A stretch of DNA of 39,919 nt from Escherichia phage EG1. Of this stretch, positions 1 to 39,919 are shown one piece after another; position 1 is the first letter of the stretch, and each line of letters starts with the position of its first letter. The position numbers and the translations under genes were made by a program. The stretch is from the sequence record MG488277, one strand, 5' to 3'. The notes under the pieces were generated by a model, which saw only the letters and a list, made by a program, of their open reading frames with translations, did no database searches and had not been told where the DNA came from.

Positions 1-150
1 TCTCACAGTGTAAGCGCCCAAGGTTCCCCCCATAGGGGTACCCAAAGTCACTCCTTTGGAGTGCCGGACCTTGAGGAGGCCTTGAGGATGGCCCAGAGAG
101 ACCTTGAAGAGGGTCCTAATGTTACCGTGGGAGTGCCTCCTTGTCCCTAT
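1..150. repeat. Left direct terminal repeat (terminal redundancy)
   Basis: Bases 1-150 are identical to 39770-39919; the right copy is cut by the window end, so the true repeat may be ~160 bp as in T7. Confidence 0.9.
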
Positions 151-3741: not shown

Positions 3742-6393
3742 ATGAGCACGATTAACATCGCTAAGAACGATTTCTCTGACATCGAACTGGCTGCTATCCC
3801 GTTCAACACTCTGGCTGACCACTATGGTGAGCGTCTAGCTCGCGAGCAGTTGGCCCTTGAGCATGAGTCTTACGAGATGGGCGAGGCACGTTTCCGCAAG
3901 ATGTTTGAGCGTCAACTTAAGGCCGGTGAGGTTGCAGACAATGCGGCTGCTAAACCACTGATTACTACTCTGCTGCCTAAGATGGTTGCACGCATCAACG
4001 ACTGGTTTGAGGAAGTGAAGGCCAAGCGTGGCAAACGTCCAACCGCTTTCCAGTTTCTGCAAGGAATCAAGCCGGAATCTGTAGCATATATCACCATCAA
4101 GACTACTCTTGCTTGTCTGACGAGCGTGGACAATACAACCGTTCAGGCTGTAGCAAGCGCCATCGGACGGGCTATCGAGGAAGAGGCTCGCTTCGGTCGA
4201 ATCCGTGACCTAGAAGCTAAGCACTTCAAGAAAAACGTTGAGGAACAACTAAACAAGCGCGTAGGGCACGTCTATAAGAAGGCATTCATGCAGGTAGTCG
4301 AGGCCGATATGCTCTCTAAGGGTCTACTCGGTGGCGAGGCGTGGTCTTCGTGGCACAAGGAAGACTCCATTCACGTAGGGGTGCGCTGCATTGAGATGCT
4401 CATTGAGTCAACCGGAATGGTTAGCCTTCACCGCCAAAACGCTGGCGTAGTGGGACAAGACTCTGAGACTATCGAGCTGGCACACGAATACGCTGAGGCT
4501 ATCGCAACACGGGCTGGGGCACTGGCTGGTATCTCTCCGATGTATCAGCCTTGCATAGTACCGCCTAAACCTTGGACTGGTGTAACTGGTGGCGGATACT
4601 GGGCTAACGGTCGCCGTCCGCTGGTACTGGTACGCACCCACAGCAAGAAGGCACTGATGCGCTACGAAGATGTTTACATGCCTGAGGTATACAAGGCGAT
4701 CAACATTGCGCAAAACACCGCTTGGAAAATCAACAAGAAAGTCCTAGCGGTCGCCAACGTGATAACCAAGTGGAAGCACTGCCCGGTCGAGGACATCCCA
4801 GCGATTGAGCGCGAAGAACTCCCGATGAAACCGGAAGACATCGACACGAATCCAGAGGCGCTGACCGCTTGGAAACGTGCTGCTGCCGCTGTGTACCGTA
4901 AAGACAAGGCCCGTAAGTCTCGCCGCATAAGCCTTGAGTTCATGCTTGAGCAAGCCAACAAGTTTGCTAACCGTAAGGCCATCTGGTTCCCTTACAACAT
5001 GGACTGGCGCGGTCGTGTGTACGCTGTGTCAATGTTCAATCCGCAAGGTAACGACATGACAAAAGGTCTGCTGACACTGGCTAAGGGTAAGCCAATCGGC
5101 AAGGAAGGATTCTACTGGCTGAAAATTCACGGTGCTAACTGCGCGGGGGTCGATAAGGTTCCATTCCCTGAGCGCATCAAGTTTATTGAGGACAACCACG
5201 ATAACATCATGGCTTGTGCTAAGTCCCCACTGGAGCACACTTGGTGGGCTGAGCAAGATTCTCCGTTCTGTTTCCTCGCGTTCTGCTTTGAGTACGCTGG
5301 GGTACAGCACCACGGACTGAGCTACAACTGCTCGCTGCCACTGGCGTTCGATGGGTCTTGCTCTGGCATCCAGCACTTCTCCGCAATGCTCCGCGATGAA
5401 GTAGGCGGTCGTGCTGTTAACCTGCTGCCTAGCGAAACCGTTCAGGACATCTACGGGATTGTTGCTAAGAAAGTAAACGAGATTCTGCAAGCTGATGTAA
5501 TCAACGGGACCGATAACGAAGTAGTTACCGTGACCGATGAGAACACTGGGGAAATCTCTGAGAAAATCAAGCTGGGTACTAAAGCACTGGCTGGTCAATG
5601 GTTGGCCTACGGTGTGACCCGTAGCGTCACTAAGCGTTCAGTCATGACGCTGGCCTATGGCTCCAAAGAGTTCGGCTTCCGTCAACAAGTCCTTGAGGAC
5701 ACCATACAGCCAGCTATTGATTCAGGCAAAGGTCTGATGTTTACCCAACCTAATCAGGCCGCTGGGTATATGGCTAAGCTGATCTGGGAGTCAGTGAGCG
5801 TTACCGTAGTGGCTGCTGTAGAGGCTATGAACTGGCTTAAGTCTGCTGCGAAGCTGCTGGCTGCTGAGGTCAAAGACAAGAAGACTGGTGAGATTCTCCG
5901 TAAACGCTGTGCGGTGTATTGGGTAACTCCTGATGGCTTCCCTGTGTGGCAAGAATACAAGAAGCCAATTCAGACTCGCTTGAACTTGATGTTCCTCGGT
6001 CAGTTCCGCTTACAGCCGACCATCAACACCAACAAGGACAGCGAGATTGATGCTCATAAGCAGGAATCTGGTATAGCTCCTAACTTTGTACACAGCCAAG
6101 ACGGTAGCCACCTACGTAAGACTGTAGTGTGGGCGCACGAGAAGTACGGCATCGAATCTTTTGCACTGATTCATGACTCCTTCGGGACCATTCCGGCTGA
6201 TGCTGCCAACCTATTCAAGGCTGTTCGTGAGACTATGGTTGACACCTACGAGTCCTGCGATGTGCTTGCTGACTTCTACAACCAGTTCGCTGACCAGTTA
6301 CATGAGTCTCAATTGGATAAAATGCCAGCACTCCCAGCTAAAGGTAACTTGAATTTACGAGACATCTTAGAGTCAGACTTCGCGTTTGCGTAA
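3742..6393 (+). CDS. 1: Single-subunit DNA-dependent RNA polymerase (gene 1)
   Basis: 883 aa, near-identical to T7 RNAP as I recall it (same length, ...ILESDFAFA C-terminus). Confidence 0.98.
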   Translation: MSTINIAKNDFSDIELAAIPFNTLADHYGERLAREQLALEHESYEMGEARFRKMFERQLKAGEVADNAAAKPLITTLLPKMVARINDWFEEVKAKRGKRPTAFQFLQGIKPESVAYITIKTTLACLTSVDNTTVQAVASAIGRAIEEEARFGRIRDLEAKHFKKNVEEQLNKRVGHVYKKAFMQVVEADMLSKGLLGGEAWSSWHKEDSIHVGVRCIEMLIESTGMVSLHRQNAGVVGQDSETIELAHEYAEAIATRAGALAGISPMYQPCIVPPKPWTGVTGGGYWANGRRPLVLVRTHSKKALMRYEDVYMPEVYKAINIAQNTAWKINKKVLAVANVITKWKHCPVEDIPAIEREELPMKPEDIDTNPEALTAWKRAAAAVYRKDKARKSRRISLEFMLEQANKFANRKAIWFPYNMDWRGRVYAVSMFNPQGNDMTKGLLTLAKGKPIGKEGFYWLKIHGANCAGVDKVPFPERIKFIEDNHDNIMACAKSPLEHTWWAEQDSPFCFLAFCFEYAGVQHHGLSYNCSLPLAFDGSCSGIQHFSAMLRDEVGGRAVNLLPSETVQDIYGIVAKKVNEILQADVINGTDNEVVTVTDENTGEISEKIKLGTKALAGQWLAYGVTRSVTKRSVMTLAYGSKEFGFRQQVLEDTIQPAIDSGKGLMFTQPNQAAGYMAKLIWESVSVTVVAAVEAMNWLKSAAKLLAAEVKDKKTGEILRKRCAVYWVTPDGFPVWQEYKKPIQTRLNLMFLGQFRLQPTINTNKDSEIDAHKQESGIAPNFVHSQDGSHLRKTVVWAHEKYGIESFALIHDSFGTIPADAANLFKAVRETMVDTYESCDVLADFYNQFADQLHESQLDKMPALPAKGNLNLRDILESDFAFA

Positions 6394-6401
6394 CGTCAAA
6401 T

Positions 6402-6424
6402 TAATACGACTCACTATAGAGGGA
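6402..6424 (+). promoter_or_regulatory. phi1.1A: T7-RNAP promoter phi1.1A
   Basis: taatacgactcactataGAGGGAC. Confidence 0.9.
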
Positions 6425-6470
6425 CAAACTCAAGGTCACTTAATGAGTGGCCTTTATGATTGACCTTCTT
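6425..6470 (+). promoter_or_regulatory. R1.1: RNase III site R1.1
   Basis: acaaactcaaggtcacttaatgagtggcctttatgattgacc. Confidence 0.75.
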
Positions 6471-6475
6471 CCGGT

Positions 6476-6498
6476 TAATACGACTCACTATAGGGAAG
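6476..6498 (+). promoter_or_regulatory. phi1.1B: T7-RNAP promoter phi1.1B
   Basis: taatacgactcactataGGGAAG. Confidence 0.9.
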
Positions 6499-6576
6499 AC
6501 CTTAAGGTTTAACTTTAAGACCCTTAAGTGTTAATTAAAGATTTAAATTAAAGACTACTAAGAGAGGACTTTAAGT
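6499..6576. other. AT-rich region downstream of phi1.1A/B, probable primary replication origin
   Basis: ttaaggtttaactttaagacccttaagtgttaattaaagatttaaattaaag; in T7 the primary origin is the AT-rich segment after these promoters. Confidence 0.55.
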
Positions 6577-6705
6577 ATGCGTAACTTCGAAAAGATGACC
6601 AAACGTTCTAACCGTAACGCTTATAACTTCGAGGAAACCAAAGGTCGCAAATTTAATAAACCATTACGAACCCGTGCACATAAACGCTGCTGGGAGGGTC
6701 AGTAA
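6577..6705 (+). CDS. 1.1: gp1.1-like small basic protein
   Basis: 42 aa MRNFEKMTKRSNRNAYNFEETKGRKFNKPLRTRAHKRCWEGQ; below ORF-track cutoff. Confidence 0.85.
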   Translation: MRNFEKMTKRSNRNAYNFEETKGRKFNKPLRTRAHKRCWEGQ

Positions 6706-6706
6706 G

Positions 6707-6973
6707 ATGGGACGTTTATACAGTGGGAACCTGAATGATTTTAAGGACGCTTGCAACAGGCTCTACCAGTTGGACCTTGCTGTTATAGCCGTTGAGCAGG
6801 AAGGTTCACCAAACATAAAGGTAACCATGTACCTTCGGATTGAAGACCGTACTGGTCGCATAGTTGCTCAGGAAGAGATTCACCACTGCGACGAAGACGT
6901 CCTGTACTCTATGGCAACCGCTTGGTTGAACTTTATGTACTACCAGTTGAAGGACTGGAAGGAGGCACTCTAA
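6707..6973 (+). CDS. 1.2: gp1.2-like protein (host dGTPase inhibitor in T7), copy 1
   Basis: 88 aa from ATG 6707: MGRLYSGNLNDFKDA...DEDVLYSMATAWLNFMYYQLKDWKEAL. Confidence 0.8.
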   Translation: MGRLYSGNLNDFKDACNRLYQLDLAVIAVEQEGSPNIKVTMYLRIEDRTGRIVAQEEIHHCDEDVLYSMATAWLNFMYYQLKDWKEAL

Positions 6974-7245
6974 TGGGACGCTTATACAGTGGTAACTTAA
7001 TAGCATACAAAGACGCTATCGAACGACTTAAAGAAGACCACGATGCAAATGTGGTCGTTGAGACTTATCGCTATGAGGACTTCGCACAGCGACGGATGGT
7101 TGCCGGTGAGACACTTCGAGTGATATTGCGGGATGGCTTAATGCTGACCGCTAAGTGTTTCGAGCAGTCAGATGAAGACGTTCGCTGTAATGCACAGACC
7201 GAATGGCTCCGTAAGGTACACAGTGACCTACAGCACTGGAAGTAA
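6973..7245 (+). CDS. gp1.2 paralogue, copy 2 (diverged tandem duplicate)
   Basis: 90 aa from ATG 6973 (TAATG overlap): MGRLYSGNLIAYKDA...DEDVRCNAQTEWLRKVHSDLQHWK; shares N- and C-terminal motifs with copy 1. Confidence 0.75.
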   Translation: MGRLYSGNLIAYKDAIERLKEDHDANVVVETYRYEDFAQRRMVAGETLRVILRDGLMLTAKCFEQSDEDVRCNAQTEWLRKVHSDLQHWK

Positions 7246-7265
7246 TACGACTCACTAAAGGGACA
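7243..7265 (+). promoter_or_regulatory. phi1.3: T7-RNAP promoter phi1.3
   Basis: taatacgactcactaaaGGGACA; first 3 nt are the stop codon of the preceding gene. Confidence 0.85.
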
Positions 7266-7310
7266 ATGCTTAAGGTCGCTCCAACTGAGTGGCCTTAGTC
7301 GTTTAACCGA
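7264..7310 (+). promoter_or_regulatory. R1.3: RNase III site R1.3
   Basis: caatgcttaaggtcgctccaactgagtggccttagtcg. Confidence 0.6.
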
Positions 7311-7325
7311 TAGGAGATACTAATC

Positions 7326-8399
7326 ATGATGAACATTAAGACCAACCCATTTAAAGCAACGTCTTTCGTAGAGTCTGCCATTAAGAAAGCTCTGGACAAC
7401 GCTGGGTATCTTATTGCTGACGTTAAATACGATGGTGTACGTGGTAACATCTGCGTAGACAATACTGCTAACAGTTGCTGGCTCTCTCGTGTATCTAAAA
7501 CGATTCCGGCACTGGAGCACCTAAACGGCTTCGATGTGCGCTGGAAGCGTCTTCTGAATGATGACCGTTGCTTCTACAAAGACGGCTTTATGTTGGATGG
7601 GGAACTCATGGTCAAGGGAGTAGACTTCAACACTGGGTCCGGCCTACTGCGTACCAAGTGGCTCAACAAGAAGAACTTTGAGTTCGACGTTGGCGGTGTG
7701 CCACCACTCAAGGGGTCCAAGGTTGAGTTCGCGTTGGACACCAAACGTCTGAGTGTCAAACTGTATGCTATCCTACCGCTGCACATCGTAGAGTCTGGGG
7801 AAGACTGCGACATCATGACGCTGCTCATGCAGGAACACGTTAAGAACATGCTTCCTCTGCTACAGGAATACTTTCCTGAAATCGAATGGCAAGCGGCTGA
7901 GTCTTACGAGGTTTACGACATGGTAGAACTACAGCAACTGTACGAGAAGAAGCGTGAAGAAGGGCATGAAGGTCTCATTGTGAAAGACCCCATGGGAATC
8001 TACAAGCGCGGCAAGAAGTCCGGCTGGTGGAAAATGAAGCCTGAGAACGAGGCTGACGGTATTATCCAAGGTCTTGTATGGGGTACTCAAGGTCTGGCTA
8101 ACGAAGGTAAAGTGATTGGCTTTGAGGTGCTTCTTGAGAGTGGTCGTGTAGTAAACGCCACAAACATCTCTCGCGCCTTAATGGACGAGTTCACAGACGC
8201 AGTAAAAGAGGCCACCTTGAAACAGTGGGGATTCTTTAGCCCATATGGTATTGGTGACAACGATGCTTGCACATTAAATCCCTACAATGGATGGGCCTGC
8301 CAGATTAGCTATATGGAGGAAACACCAGACGGCTCTCTGCGTCACCCATCGTTCGTAATGTTCCGTGGCACCGAGGACAACCCTCAAGAGAAAATGTAA
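7326..8399 (+). CDS. 1.3: ATP-dependent DNA ligase (gene 1.3)
   Basis: 357 aa MMNIKTNPFKA...IADVKYDGVRG (KxDG adenylation motif). Confidence 0.95.
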   Translation: MMNIKTNPFKATSFVESAIKKALDNAGYLIADVKYDGVRGNICVDNTANSCWLSRVSKTIPALEHLNGFDVRWKRLLNDDRCFYKDGFMLDGELMVKGVDFNTGSGLLRTKWLNKKNFEFDVGGVPPLKGSKVEFALDTKRLSVKLYAILPLHIVESGEDCDIMTLLMQEHVKNMLPLLQEYFPEIEWQAAESYEVYDMVELQQLYEKKREEGHEGLIVKDPMGIYKRGKKSGWWKMKPENEADGIIQGLVWGTQGLANEGKVIGFEVLLESGRVVNATNISRALMDEFTDAVKEATLKQWGFFSPYGIGDNDACTLNPYNGWACQISYMEETPDGSLRHPSFVMFRGTEDNPQEKM

Positions 8400-39769: not shown

Positions 39770-39919
39770 ATCTCACAGTGTAAGCGCCCAAGGTTCCCCC
39801 CATAGGGGTACCCAAAGTCACTCCTTTGGAGTGCCGGACCTTGAGGAGGCCTTGAGGATGGCCCAGAGAGACCTTGAAGAGGGTCCTAATGTTACCGTGG
39901 GAGTGCCTCCTTGTCCCTA
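39770..39919. repeat. Right direct terminal repeat (truncated by window end)
   Basis: Identical to bases 1-150. Confidence 0.9.

What the first reader, a model, noticed from the sequence alone, without database searches (positions are those of the whole stretch)
6707..7245. Tandem diverged duplication of gene 1.2
Two adjacent ORFs (6707-6973 and 6973-7245, joined by a TAATG overlap) both begin MGRLYSGNL and keep shared motifs (KDA, RL, DEDV, WL, L-x-x-W-K near the C-terminus), but differ through most of the middle. T7 has a single gene 1.2 as I recall. In T7, gp1.2 inhibits host dGTP triphosphohydrolase and is one of the determinants of F-plasmid PifA exclusion. Two diverged paralogues could mean broader target range or decoy/escape evolution. 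The stop of copy 2 is the first three bases of promoter phi1.3, so the insertion is precisely fitted.
Basis: partly seen in the sequence, partly recalled or inferred. Interest (0 to 1): 0.7.

Follow-up and report, generated by a model that had tools for sequence, protein, structure and literature searches.

The report
Two different gp1.2 alleles joined in tandem
This T7-like phage carries two intact copies of the small gene that blocks the host's dGTP-destroying enzyme, but they are two old variants from different phage genera spliced together by recombination, not a local duplication, so the finding is real but a modest variation on a known theme.

Summary
ORFs 6707-6973 (88 aa) and 6973-7245 (90 aa) overlap in TAATG, and both are full-length gp1.2 (Pfam PF10922) proteins with the T7 gp1.2 fold.

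The interpretation as a "diverged duplication" is not supported. The copies are 34% identical to each other. Each has a 93-98% identical relative that sits alone in another phage. Copy 1 is a Teseptimavirus (T7-type) allele. Copy 2 is a Berlinvirus/T3-type allele.

Copy 2 arrived as a 281-nt insert (6962-7242). The insert still carries the last 11 nt of a Berlinvirus gene 1.1. It is bounded by an 8-nt repeat, ACTGGAAG. The right-hand join lies in the shared 1.2-end/phi1.3 promoter core, so the stop/promoter overlap is the normal T7 arrangement.

The identical junction occurs in three metagenome contigs with a different copy-1 allele, so it is not an assembly error. The only other dual carrier found, phage P694, has a different architecture.

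Both genes lie in one transcription unit and keep the Dgt-inserting N-terminus. They are probably both expressed dGTPase inhibitors. Whether the pair is adaptive or a transient step in allele replacement is untested. The adaptive options are a wider dGTPase range and protection against PifA.

The window is probably the published phage EG1.

The parts
6402..6424 (+). T7-type promoter (position of phi1.1A)
   Evidence: Matches TAATACGACTCACTATAGGGAGA with 2 mismatches.
6476..6498 (+). T7-type promoter (position of phi1.1B). It is the last phage promoter upstream of both gp1.2 copies.
   Evidence: There is no further promoter match until 7243.
6577..6705 (+). Gene 1.1 (42 aa), Teseptimavirus type, ending ...CWEGQ*
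   Evidence: Pfam PF08200, E 1.4e-11. Alignment with PHB19 and Yep_9.
6707..6973 (+). Copy 1: a T7-type (Teseptimavirus) gp1.2 allele of 85 aa plus a 3-residue tail, EAL. The tail is read from the imported 3' end of a Berlinvirus gene 1.1.
   Evidence: PF10922, 98.5 bits. 96.5% identical to Yep_9 and 56.5% to T7. E 1.8e-24 to PDB 2MDP. AF2 model pLDDT 84.8; Foldseek top hit 7U66_G, TM 0.86.
6707..6726 (+). First arm of a 20-nt direct repeat (19 of 20 identical) formed by the conserved 5' ends of the two genes. It encodes MGRLYSG. It is a possible substrate for deletion of copy 1.
   Evidence: ATGGGACGTTTATACAGTGG versus ATGGGACGCTTATACAGTGG.
6954..6961 (+). Left junction microhomology, ACTGGAAG. 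It is shared by the 3' end of T7-type gene 1.2 and the 3' end of Berlinvirus gene 1.1.
   Evidence: T7-type homology ends at 6961. Berlinvirus homology starts at 6954/6955.
6962..7242 (+). 281-nt segment of Berlinvirus origin: the last 11 nt of gene 1.1 (with the Shine-Dalgarno sequence AGGAGG completed at 6960-6965) followed by the whole of gene 1.2. The related phage HZ2R8 lacks exactly this segment.
   Evidence: The gap in the alignment with HZ2R8, HZP2 and Yep_9 spans this segment. 94.9% nt identity to Shigella phage A7 over 6954-7245.
6973..7245 (+). Copy 2: a Berlinvirus/T3-type gp1.2 allele (90 aa). Its start overlaps the stop of copy 1 (TAATG).
   Evidence: PF10922, 46 bits. 97.8% identical to PHB19, 93% to P694, 55.6% to T3. 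E 2.1e-9 to 2MDP. AF2 model pLDDT 86.7; Foldseek top hit 7U66_G, TM 0.84. The exact protein is named 'dGTP triphosphohydrolase inhibitor [Escherichia phage EG1]'.
6973..6992 (+). Second arm of the 20-nt direct repeat.
7235..7242 (+). Second copy of ACTGGAAG, 281 nt after the first. It begins the 23-nt stretch ACTGGAAGTAATACGACTCACTA that donor and recipient share, where the right-hand crossover must lie.
7243..7265 (+). Promoter phi1.3 (Teseptimavirus type, ...CACTAAAGGGACA). Its first three bases are the stop codon of copy 2.
   Evidence: Downstream sequence is identical to HZ2R8 and PHB19 and differs from Berlinviruses after CACTA.
7326..8399 (+). Gene 1.3, DNA ligase. This is the downstream neighbour, as in T7.
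   Evidence: ORF list. Annotated as ligase in all related records.

Best explanation
WHAT IT IS (shown). Two intact genes of the gp1.2 dGTPase-inhibitor family lie head to tail. They belong to two long-separated allelic lineages. Copy 1 is the resident Teseptimavirus (T7-type) allele. Copy 2 is a Berlinvirus/T3-type allele.

HOW IT AROSE (read from the sequence; the mechanism itself is inferred). A Berlinvirus-like genome donated 281 nt to a Teseptimavirus, probably during a mixed infection.
- The left join is an illegitimate crossover at the 8-nt microhomology ACTGGAAG. This octamer ends the T7-type gene 1.2 (..D W K) and, by chance, also sits near the end of the Berlinvirus gene 1.1 (..N W K E A L).
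- As a result copy 1 gained the tail EAL, and copy 2 kept its native Shine-Dalgarno sequence and TAATG stop/start overlap.
- The right join is homologous, within the shared ACTGGAAG-TAATACGACTCACTA stretch (1.2 end plus promoter core).

HOW IT WORKS (inferred).
- Both genes lie on the same transcripts from the two promoters at 6402 and 6476. No promoter or convincing terminator lies between them.
- Copy 2 is probably translationally coupled to copy 1.
- Both products keep the invariant N-terminus G2-R3-L-Y5-S6-G7. In T7 gp1.2 this segment enters the Dgt active site and locks (d)GTP in a non-catalytic pose.
- Both products are predicted to have the helix / three-strand sheet / helix fold of T7 gp1.2.
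- Both should therefore inhibit Dgt-type dGTPases and protect the dGTP pool. They differ over most of the rest of the surface, so they probably differ in which enzyme variants they bind.
- They probably also differ in how they interact with the F-plasmid PifA system, which distinguishes the two allele types.

The tandem state also looks like the starting point for the common single-copy form, a Berlinvirus-type allele in a Teseptimavirus backbone (PHB19-like). That form can arise by deletion between the 20-nt repeats at the two gene starts.
For: Identity and family:
- Full-length Pfam and PHROG matches for both copies.
- Full-length phmmer hits to T7 gp1.2 structures 2MDP and 7U65.
- AF2 models with pLDDT 85 and 87 and secondary structure H-E-E-E-H.
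- Foldseek top hits are Dgt-bound gp1.2 (7U66_G), TM 0.86 and 0.84, rmsd 1.6 and 1.9 A.

Two lineages:
- Copy 1 is 96.5% identical to Yep_9, 93% to HZ2R8 and 56% to T7.
- Copy 2 is 98% identical to PHB19, 93-96% to P694 and A7, 80% to JeanTinguely and 56% to T3.
- The copies are 34-36% identical to each other.

Junction:
- The homology tracts overlap only in ACTGGAAG.
- The three-way sequence comparison shows window = HZ2R8 up to ..GGACTGGAAG and = A7 from ACTGGAAGGAGGCACTCTAATG onward.
- On the right, the window equals both A7 and HZ2R8 through the shared ACTGGAAGTAATACGACTCACTA. After that it equals HZ2R8 and PHB19 (AAGGGACAATGC...), not A7 (TTGCGAG...).

Reality:
- The same 28-nt junction is present in three ENA metagenome contigs from three samples, with coverage 5-57x.
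- In those contigs copy 1 is a different (HZP2-like) allele while copy 2 is 99-100% identical.

Constraint: dN/dS against relatives not selected by protein identity is 0.07-0.34 for copy 1 and 0.08-0.17 for copy 2. Between two tandem-bearing contigs copy 1 gives 0.15.

Expression context:
- Promoters lie at 6402, 6476 and 7243 only.
- No convincing terminator lies between the copies.
- AGGAGG lies 7 nt before the ATG of copy 2.

Mechanism of the family: the Dgt contacts of T7 gp1.2 are G2, R3, Y5, S6, G7, A10, F12, K13, Y28 and V65 (PMC9478638). G2-G7, K13 and V65 are kept in both copies.

Direction of evolution:
- Single-copy PHB19-like contigs differ from copy 2 by 2-8 nt of 270. Berlinvirus copies differ by 15-19 nt.
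- The single-copy forms lack the GAGGCACTCTA tail.
- The single form can therefore derive from the tandem, but not the reverse.
Against: - No expression or activity data exist for either copy.
- Several Dgt contact positions differ from T7 in both copies. A10 is N in copy 1 and I in copy 2. Y28 is A in copy 1 and V in copy 2. F12 is Y in copy 2.
- The effect of the EAL tail on copy 1 is unknown.
- The tandem is rare. No record among 50,697 phage records covers 80% or more of 6707-7245. There were no hits in IMG/VR, JGI metagenomes or GTDB genomes, although only 26 IMG/VR contigs match the gp1.2 start motif at all.
- Single-copy derivatives are much more common. 7 of the 9 places shown (10 contigs read) with the exact copy-2 protein are single-copy, as are several isolates. 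This fits a transient state as well as an adaptive one.
- The three supporting contigs come from one accession series and may share an environment.
- The dN/dS counts are small (3-12 differences). They partly reflect divergence before the genes were joined.
- L011 and L012 differ at 10 sites in copy 1 but only 2 in copy 2. This points to recombination rather than long co-residence.
Confidence: 0.65

Rival explanations
1. Neutral, short-lived recombination intermediate. The pair has the same origin as above, but the second inhibitor adds nothing. One copy is redundant and the arrangement is simply caught before deletion between the repeated 5' ends removes copy 1. It would be allele replacement by addition followed by deletion.
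For: - Single-copy Teseptimaviruses carrying a nearly identical Berlinvirus-type allele are far more frequent than the tandem.
- Their 5' ends carry mixtures of the wobble bases of copy 1 and copy 2. This is expected from crossovers inside the 20-nt repeat.
- The tandem is very rare in public data.
- If the copy-2 module spreads by homologous recombination using the 3' end of copy 1 as its left arm, copy 1 is retained automatically, without selection.
Against: - The tandem is present in four genotypes with two different copy-1 alleles. All have both reading frames intact.
- An independent event produced the same pairing of one T3-type and one T7-type allele in Berlinvirus P694, by a different route.
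- Neither copy shows any frameshift or stop.
Confidence: 0.3
2. Division of labour against the F-plasmid PifA abortive-infection system. The T3/Berlinvirus-type copy 2 acts as a dominant protector against PifA. The T7-type copy 1, possibly itself a PifA trigger, remains the main Dgt inhibitor.
For: - PifA sensitivity tracks the gp1.2 allele type. T7 and JacobBurckhardt are sensitive.
- The Teseptimavirus JeanTinguely, whose Berlinvirus-like allele is 80% identical to copy 2, is resistant (PMC8594841 and PMC11990801).
- Lin et al. 2012, citing Schmitt and Molineux 1991, state that T7 gp1.2 or gp10 is needed for exclusion whereas T3 gp1.2 can prevent it (PMC3276506).
- A dominant protector would explain why adding an allele, rather than replacing one, could be favoured.
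Against: - Copy 1 is only 56-60% identical to the tested sensitive alleles, so whether it triggers PifA is unknown.
- The BASEL authors note that PifA sensitivity is more complex than two alleles at one locus.
- The primary paper could not be read here.
- Single-copy derivatives that dropped copy 1 are common. This suggests copy 2 alone is sufficient.
Confidence: 0.2
3. In-place tandem duplication of the resident gene 1.2 followed by rapid divergence of the two paralogues.
For: The genes are adjacent, in the same orientation, of similar length and homologous over their full length.
Against: - Each copy has 93-98% identical single-copy relatives in other phages, while the copies are 34% identical to each other.
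- The stretch between them is the 3' end of a foreign gene 1.1.
- Relatives with identical flanks lack exactly the 281-nt insert.
Confidence: 0.03
4. Assembly chimera of two co-isolated phages, one with each allele.
For: Both allele types circulate in closely related phages that could contaminate one another.
Against: - The join is an 8-nt microhomology, and the longest exact repeat between the copies is 11 nt. Both are far below assembler k-mer sizes.
- The join keeps reading frame, Shine-Dalgarno sequence and stop/start overlap.
- The identical junction was assembled independently in three metagenome samples at up to 57x coverage.
Confidence: 0.02

Closest known systems
Bacteriophage T7 gp1.2, inhibitor of E. 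coli dGTPase Dgt (PDB 2MDP, 7U65-7U67; Pfam PF10922)
   Same: - Same family, same predicted fold, same length class.
- Same position between gene 1.1 and promoter phi1.3/ligase.
- Identical N-terminal MGRLYSGNL segment, which enters the Dgt active site.
   Different: - T7 has one copy. This window has two.
- Copy 1 is 56% identical to T7 gp1.2 and copy 2 is 36-38% identical.
- Contact residues A10 and Y28 differ in both copies.
- Copy 1 has three extra C-terminal residues.
T3 / Berlinvirus-type gp1.2 alleles (T3, Shigella phage A7, BA14, 285P), and the same allele type transplanted into Teseptimaviruses (JeanTinguely Bas64, PHB19)
   Same: - Copy 2 is this allele type. It is 93-96% identical to Berlinvirus copies, 98% to PHB19, 80% to JeanTinguely and 56% to T3.
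- Transfer of this allele type into a Teseptimavirus is already described for JeanTinguely (PMC8594841).
   Different: - In those phages the allele replaces the T7-type gene. The join lies inside the conserved first 20 nt of gene 1.2.
- Here the allele is added behind the T7-type gene, and a piece of Berlinvirus gene 1.1 came with it.
Escherichia phage P694 (Berlinvirus, NC_028863): two gene 1.1-1.2 cassettes
   Same: This was the only other public phage record found with two gp1.2 genes. It also has one T3-type and one T7-type allele, and both are annotated as dGTPase inhibitor.
   Different: - The backbone is Berlinvirus and the order is reversed (T3-type first).
- Each copy has its own promoter and its own gene 1.1, and the gene starts are 492 nt apart.
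- The joins lie at the repeated promoters, not at a microhomology inside coding sequence.

Membership tests
gp1.2 dGTPase inhibitor family (Pfam PF10922 / PHROG 2949) | Full-length profile match above the curated threshold | tested here: met
   Copy 1 scores 98.5 bits and copy 2 scores 46 bits against a cutoff of 22. Both cover profile positions 1-85. Both match PHROG 2949 at about 1e-35.
gp1.2 dGTPase inhibitor family (Pfam PF10922 / PHROG 2949) | Fold of T7 gp1.2: a three-stranded antiparallel sheet packed against two helices | tested here: met
   This rests on prediction only. The AF2 models have secondary structure H-E-E-E-H with pLDDT 84.8 and 86.7. The best PDB match is 7U66 chain G, TM 0.86 and 0.84.
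gp1.2 dGTPase inhibitor family (Pfam PF10922 / PHROG 2949) | N-terminal G2-R3 and Y5-S6-G7, which insert into and contact the Dgt active site | tested here: met
   Both copies start MGRLYSGNL, identical to T7. The contact list comes from PMC9478638.
gp1.2 dGTPase inhibitor family (Pfam PF10922 / PHROG 2949) | Remaining Dgt contact residues of T7 gp1.2 (A10, F12, K13, Y28, V65) | tested here: inconclusive
   Copy 1 has N10, F12, K13, A28, V65. Copy 2 has I10, Y12, K13, V28 and V at the DEDV motif. Position 28 is also variable across the T7-type family.
gp1.2 dGTPase inhibitor family (Pfam PF10922 / PHROG 2949) | Location in the class II region between gene 1.1 and promoter phi1.3/ligase | tested here: met
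gp1.2 dGTPase inhibitor family (Pfam PF10922 / PHROG 2949) | Inhibits host dGTPase, and is needed for growth on Dgt-overproducing (optA1) hosts | not testable with these tools
   Requires enzyme assays or plating.
Target or modulator of F-plasmid PifA exclusion | Expression is lethal in F+ cells (T7 type), or protects from exclusion (T3 type) | not testable with these tools
   Only allele-type correlations from the literature are available.
In-place tandem gene duplication | The two copies are each other's closest relatives, or at least derive from one resident gene | tested here: not met
   The copies are 34% identical to each other, against 93-98% to single-copy genes in other phages. A foreign gene 1.1 remnant lies between them.
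Gene addition by inter-genus recombination (mosaicism of T7-like phages) | Identifiable donor and recipient sequence on either side of a defined breakpoint | tested here: met
   The breakpoints are ACTGGAAG at 6954-6961 and the shared 23 nt at 7235-7257. The recipient type is HZ2R8/Yep_9 and the donor type is Berlinvirus A7/P694.

The most novel reading that the evidence does not exclude
The pair is a functional two-component counter-defence module.
- The imported T3/Berlinvirus-type gp1.2 would act as a dominant antidote to PifA-type abortive infection, or would inhibit a second, defence-island dGTPase.
- The resident T7-type gp1.2 would keep inhibiting housekeeping Dgt.
- The module would spread between Teseptimaviruses by recombination, possibly helped by the HNH homing endonucleases found next to this locus in relatives.

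This would be a natural case of an anti-defence protein family splitting into inhibitor and anti-Abi roles within one genome.
Probability: 0.2. Interest if true: 0.65.

Novelty: new variant of a known kind. Interest (0 to 1): 0.42.

Why it matters
gp1.2 sits at the crossing of two phage-host conflicts. One is nucleotide depletion by dGTPases, now recognised as a widespread defence. The other is F-plasmid PifA exclusion, whose trigger logic is still unclear.

A natural phage that expresses one allele of each major type from one operon is a ready-made test system. Single and double deletions would show three things:
- whether the two allele types differ in dGTPase range;
- whether the T3-type allele is dominant over a T7-type trigger;
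- whether allele replacement in T7-like phages proceeds through an add-then-delete intermediate.

The junction is also a clean natural example of an 8-nt microhomology join that preserves translation signals.

There is a practical point for annotation. The copy-1 product is not on record in the large protein collection, whereas copy 2 is named there. Copy 1 may therefore be unannotated in the public genome.

Tried and rejected
- Exact 28-nt junction in IMG/VR: 0 hits.
- Gapped pattern for directly abutting gp1.2 genes: 0 hits each in IMG/VR, JGI metagenomes and GTDB genomes. The denominator is small, because only 26 IMG/VR contigs match the gp1.2 start motif.
- Gapped pattern for the P694-type spacing: only P694 itself in IMG/VR and nothing in JGI metagenomes.
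- The phage record TH16 also showed two gp1.2 places. They lie at the two ends of the record (402-656 and 40346-40600), so this is redundant assembly ends and was rejected.
- Rfam scan of 6000-8000: no RNA family.
- Sigma-70 promoter and terminator scan: nothing between the copies except a 5-bp stem inside conserved coding sequence, at chance level.
- Exact look-ups of copy 1 as 88 aa and as the 99-aa GTG-start form: not on record.
- Sampling contexts of other alleles (P0143, P0164, P0151, P0008; 16 contigs): all single-copy.
- The zero non-synonymous differences among contigs retrieved by exact protein identity are true by construction. They were not used as evidence of selection.
- Literature searches found no description of a double gp1.2 in EG1 or any other phage.
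- The EG1 paper and Schmitt and Molineux 1991 are not held.
Full report
OBSERVATION.

The window reads ATG at 6707 to TAA at 6971-6973 (88 codons), and ATG at 6973 to TAA at 7243-7245 (90 codons). The two ORFs overlap as TAATG. Both products begin MGRLYSGNL.

BLASTP of one against the other gives 34% identity across the whole length, E 1e-12. Both match Pfam PF10922 ("Bacteriophage T7-like, gene 1.2") from the first to the last profile position, at 98.5 and 46 bits against a cutoff of 22. The ORF upstream (6577-6705) is gene 1.1, PF08200. Both copies also fall in PHROG 2949.

WHAT THE WINDOW IS.

The window is a complete T7-like genome.
- It has an exact 149-bp direct terminal repeat.
- It has twelve T7-type promoter matches.
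- It is 90-94% identical to several Teseptimaviruses over 25 kb.

The exact copy-2 protein is on record as "dGTP triphosphohydrolase inhibitor [Escherichia phage EG1]" (ATW57719.1 / YP_009795807.1). The longest contig recorded for it is 39,919 bp, which is the window's length. The window is therefore very probably phage vB_EcoP-EG1, although that record was not among the search results. The copy-1 product is not on record in the same collection, either as 88 aa or as the 99-aa GTG-start form. It may be unannotated in the public record. I could not check this.

TWO LINEAGES, NOT A DUPLICATION.

tblastn against 50,697 phage records gives the following.
- Copy 1 is 96.5% identical to the gp1.2 ORF of Yersinia phage vB_Yep_9, about 88% to Salmonella phage 3A_8767 and 56.5% to T7. 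It is only 30-40% identical to the T3/Klebsiella-type genes.
- Copy 2 is 97.8% identical to PHB19, 93-94% to P694 and vB_STy-RN5i1, and 55.6% to T3. It is only 33-38% identical to T7-type genes.
- A local comparison adds Berlinvirus A7 (96%) and JeanTinguely (80%) for copy 2, and HZ2R8 (93%) for copy 1.

Each copy thus has near-identical relatives that are the sole gp1.2 of their genome, while the two copies are as far apart as T7 and T3. The BASEL papers already describe these as allelic variants of one locus. They note that the Teseptimavirus JeanTinguely carries a Berlinvirus-like allele (PMC8594841; PMC11990801).

THE JUNCTION.

In a blastn search with 6707-7245, T7-type records align to query positions 1-255 (window 6707-6961). 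Berlinvirus records align from query position 248 or 249 (window 6954/6955) to the end. The two homology tracts overlap only in ACTGGAAG.

Laid side by side, the left junction reads:
- window: ..TTGAAGGACTGGAAG|GAGGCACTCTAATGGGACGC..
- HZ2R8, a single T7-type gene: ..TTGAAGGACTGGAAG|TAATACGACTC..
- Berlinvirus A7, end of gene 1.1 and start of 1.2: ..CGTAACTGGAAG|GAGGCACTCTAATGGGTCGC..

Copy 1 therefore ends ..DWK-EAL, with the last three codons and the stop taken from a Berlinvirus gene 1.1 (..NWKEAL*). Copy 2 retains its native ribosome-binding site (AGGAGG, 7 nt before the ATG) and its native TAATG overlap.

On the right, the window follows copy 2 through ..CACTGGAAGTAATACGACTCACTA. It then continues as HZ2R8 and PHB19 do (AAGGGACAATGC..), not as Berlinviruses do (TTGCGAG.. 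or TTGGGGAG..).

The imported piece is 281 nt (6962-7242). It is flanked by ACTGGAAG at 6954 and at 7235. The alignment with HZ2R8, HZP2 and Yep_9 shows a gap of exactly that segment, with 93-100% identical flanks. It is simply where the right-hand homology lay.

IS IT REAL?

An 8-nt microhomology cannot mislead an assembler, and the longest exact match between the copies is 11 nt.

Looking up contigs that encode the exact copy-2 protein returned two ENA metagenome contigs with the same gene 1.1 / gp1.2 / gp1.2 layout: L011 (ERZ24991165) and L012 (ERZ24991166). A 99%-identical variant of copy 2 led to a third, L018 (ERZ24991168, 57x coverage). All three carry the identical 28-nt junction AAGGACTGGAAGGAGGCACTCTAATGGG.

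Their copy 1 is a different T7-type allele (HZP2-like, 82 + 3 residues, about 66-69% identical to the window's copy 1). The sequence from 6900 to 7270 is almost identical to the window.
- L011 differs from L012 and L018 at 12-13 positions.
- Ten of those positions are in copy 1 and two are in the first 15 nt of copy 2.

The tandem therefore exists in at least four genotypes. The junction-plus-copy-2 module sits behind two different copy-1 alleles. This points to spread or shuffling by homologous recombination rather than long undisturbed co-residence.

HOW COMMON?

- No record among 50,697 phage records covers 80% or more of 6707-7245.
- The only record with two genuine gp1.2 places is Berlinvirus P694. 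It has promoter / 1.1 / 1.2 (T3-type) / promoter / 1.1' / 1.2' (T7-type, 67-68% to T7 and JacobBurckhardt) / promoter / ligase. This is the same pairing in the opposite order, with joins at the repeated promoters.
- A second candidate, TH16, is merely a record with redundant ends.
- Gapped-pattern scans found no direct tandem in IMG/VR, JGI metagenomes or GTDB genomes, and only P694 for the wider spacing. The IMG/VR denominator is just 26 contigs.
- Sixteen further metagenome contigs sampled through other alleles were all single-copy.

RELATION TO THE SINGLE-COPY FORMS.

Seven of the nine places shown (ten contigs were read) for the exact copy-2 protein have it as the only gp1.2. In those contigs it sits directly after a Teseptimavirus-type gene 1.1 (..GGGAGGGTCA[G/A]TAAGATGGG). 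The same is true of PHB19.

These single-copy genes differ from the window's copy 2 by 2-8 nt of 270. Berlinvirus copies differ by 15-19 nt. The single-copy forms lack the GAGGCACTCTA remnant.
- A single-copy form can be derived from the tandem by deletion between the 20-nt repeats at the two gene starts (19 of 20 identical).
- The tandem cannot be derived from the single-copy form.
- The mixed wobble bases in the first 20 nt of the single-copy genes fit crossovers at different points in that repeat.

This is suggestive, not proof. Direct homologous exchange with an unsampled donor would look the same.

ARE BOTH LIKELY TO WORK?

Structure and sequence:
- Both copies align end to end with T7 gp1.2 structures, with E 1.8e-24 and 2.1e-9 to 2MDP and 7U65.
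- AlphaFold2 models built on family alignments have pLDDT 84.8 and 86.7 and the helix / three strands / helix order.
- Foldseek's best PDB hits are the Dgt-bound gp1.2 chains, TM 0.86 and 0.84, rmsd 1.6 and 1.9 A.

Contact residues:
- Klemm et al. show that the gp1.2 N-terminus (G2, R3) enters the Dgt active site and that Y5, S6, G7, A10, F12, K13, Y28 and V65 make the contacts (PMC9478638).
- G2 to G7, K13 and V65 are kept in both copies.
- Residue 12 is F in copy 1 and Y in copy 2. Residue 10 is N and I. Residue 28 is A and V.
The variable remainder is the docking surface.

Constraint and expression:
- dN/dS against relatives not chosen by protein identity is 0.07 and 0.34 for copy 1 and 0.08-0.17 for copy 2. 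Between tandem-bearing L011 and L012 copy 1 gives 0.15. The counts are small.
- Both genes lie between the promoters at 6402/6476 and the one at 7243, with no promoter between them. No convincing terminator and no Rfam element lie there either.

WHAT THE PAIR MIGHT DO.

Three readings remain.

(a) Both are dGTPase inhibitors with different enzyme ranges. This is plausible because defence dGTPases can block T7 despite its gp1.2 (PMC13519002).

(b) Copy 2 supplies protection against PifA.
- PifA sensitivity tracks allele type.
- From my own recollection, not checked here, T3 gene 1.2 mutants become subject to F exclusion (Molineux and Spence 1984, cited in the BASEL papers).
- A dominant protector would make addition as good as replacement.

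(c) The tandem is a neutral intermediate on the way to replacement.

The abundance of single-copy derivatives favours (c), or shows that copy 2 alone suffices. The independent P694 event and the intact state of both genes in four genotypes argue mildly for retention. Nothing computable here decides between the three.

VERDICT.

This is a real and correctly located feature. It is a known protein family in an unusual arrangement. I found no description of it in the searchable literature. It is of moderate interest as a natural test case for gp1.2 allele function and for how allele replacement proceeds in T7-like phages.

Noticed in passing
window 1-149 and 39771-39919: There is an exact 149-bp direct terminal repeat, so the window is a complete T7-like genome. 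Its length equals the longest contig recorded for the exact copy-2 protein, which NCBI names as from Escherichia phage EG1.
   Followed up: partly
window 6707-6973: The copy-1 product is not on record in the 15-billion-protein collection, either as 88 aa or as the 99-aa GTG-start form. Copy 2 is on record with NCBI names. Copy 1 may be unannotated in the public genome record.
   Followed up: partly
L001 (NC_028863 P694) 1280-2260: Berlinvirus P694 carries two complete promoter / gene 1.1 / gene 1.2 cassettes, T3-type then T7-type. This is an independent second way of ending up with one allele of each kind.
   Followed up: yes
L006 3299-3418, L008 2137-2460, L010 2135-2254, L013 724-843; L004 1794-2216: In several relatives an ORF starts about 25 nt after gene 1.2. 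In L008 it matches HNH_3 (E 1.4e-5, just above the cutoff), and in Yep_9 the record annotates an HNH endonuclease at the equivalent position. The ORFs in L006, L010 and L013 occupy the same place but were not scanned. The window has no such gene. Homing-nuclease cuts here could drive the frequent allele exchange at this locus.
   Followed up: partly
L003 (PHB19) 1480-1530; L005-L010, L013: Single-copy Teseptimaviruses with a copy-2-type gene have hybrid first 20 nt, mixing CGT/CGC, TAC/TAT and GGC/GGT. They lack the Berlinvirus gene 1.1 remnant. This is consistent with deletion derivatives of a tandem ancestor.
   Followed up: partly
L048 (MT446393 TH16) 402-656 and 40346-40600: The same gp1.2 gene appears at both ends of this UNVERIFIED record. 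The cause is redundant assembly ends, not a biological duplication.
   Followed up: yes
L004 (PV596790 Yep_9) 1501-1758; L015 (MG832642 HZ2R8) 617-958: Two annotation slips occur in relatives. In Yep_9 the gp1.2 ORF is present but not annotated. In HZ2R8 gp1.2 is annotated as 113 aa from an upstream start that runs over an unannotated gene 1.1.
   Followed up: no
L011 versus L012, tandem region: The two tandem-bearing metagenome genotypes differ at 10 sites in copy 1 but at only 2 in copy 2. The window carries yet another copy-1 allele. The copy-2 module therefore looks younger than its backgrounds, or is moving between them.
   Followed up: partly
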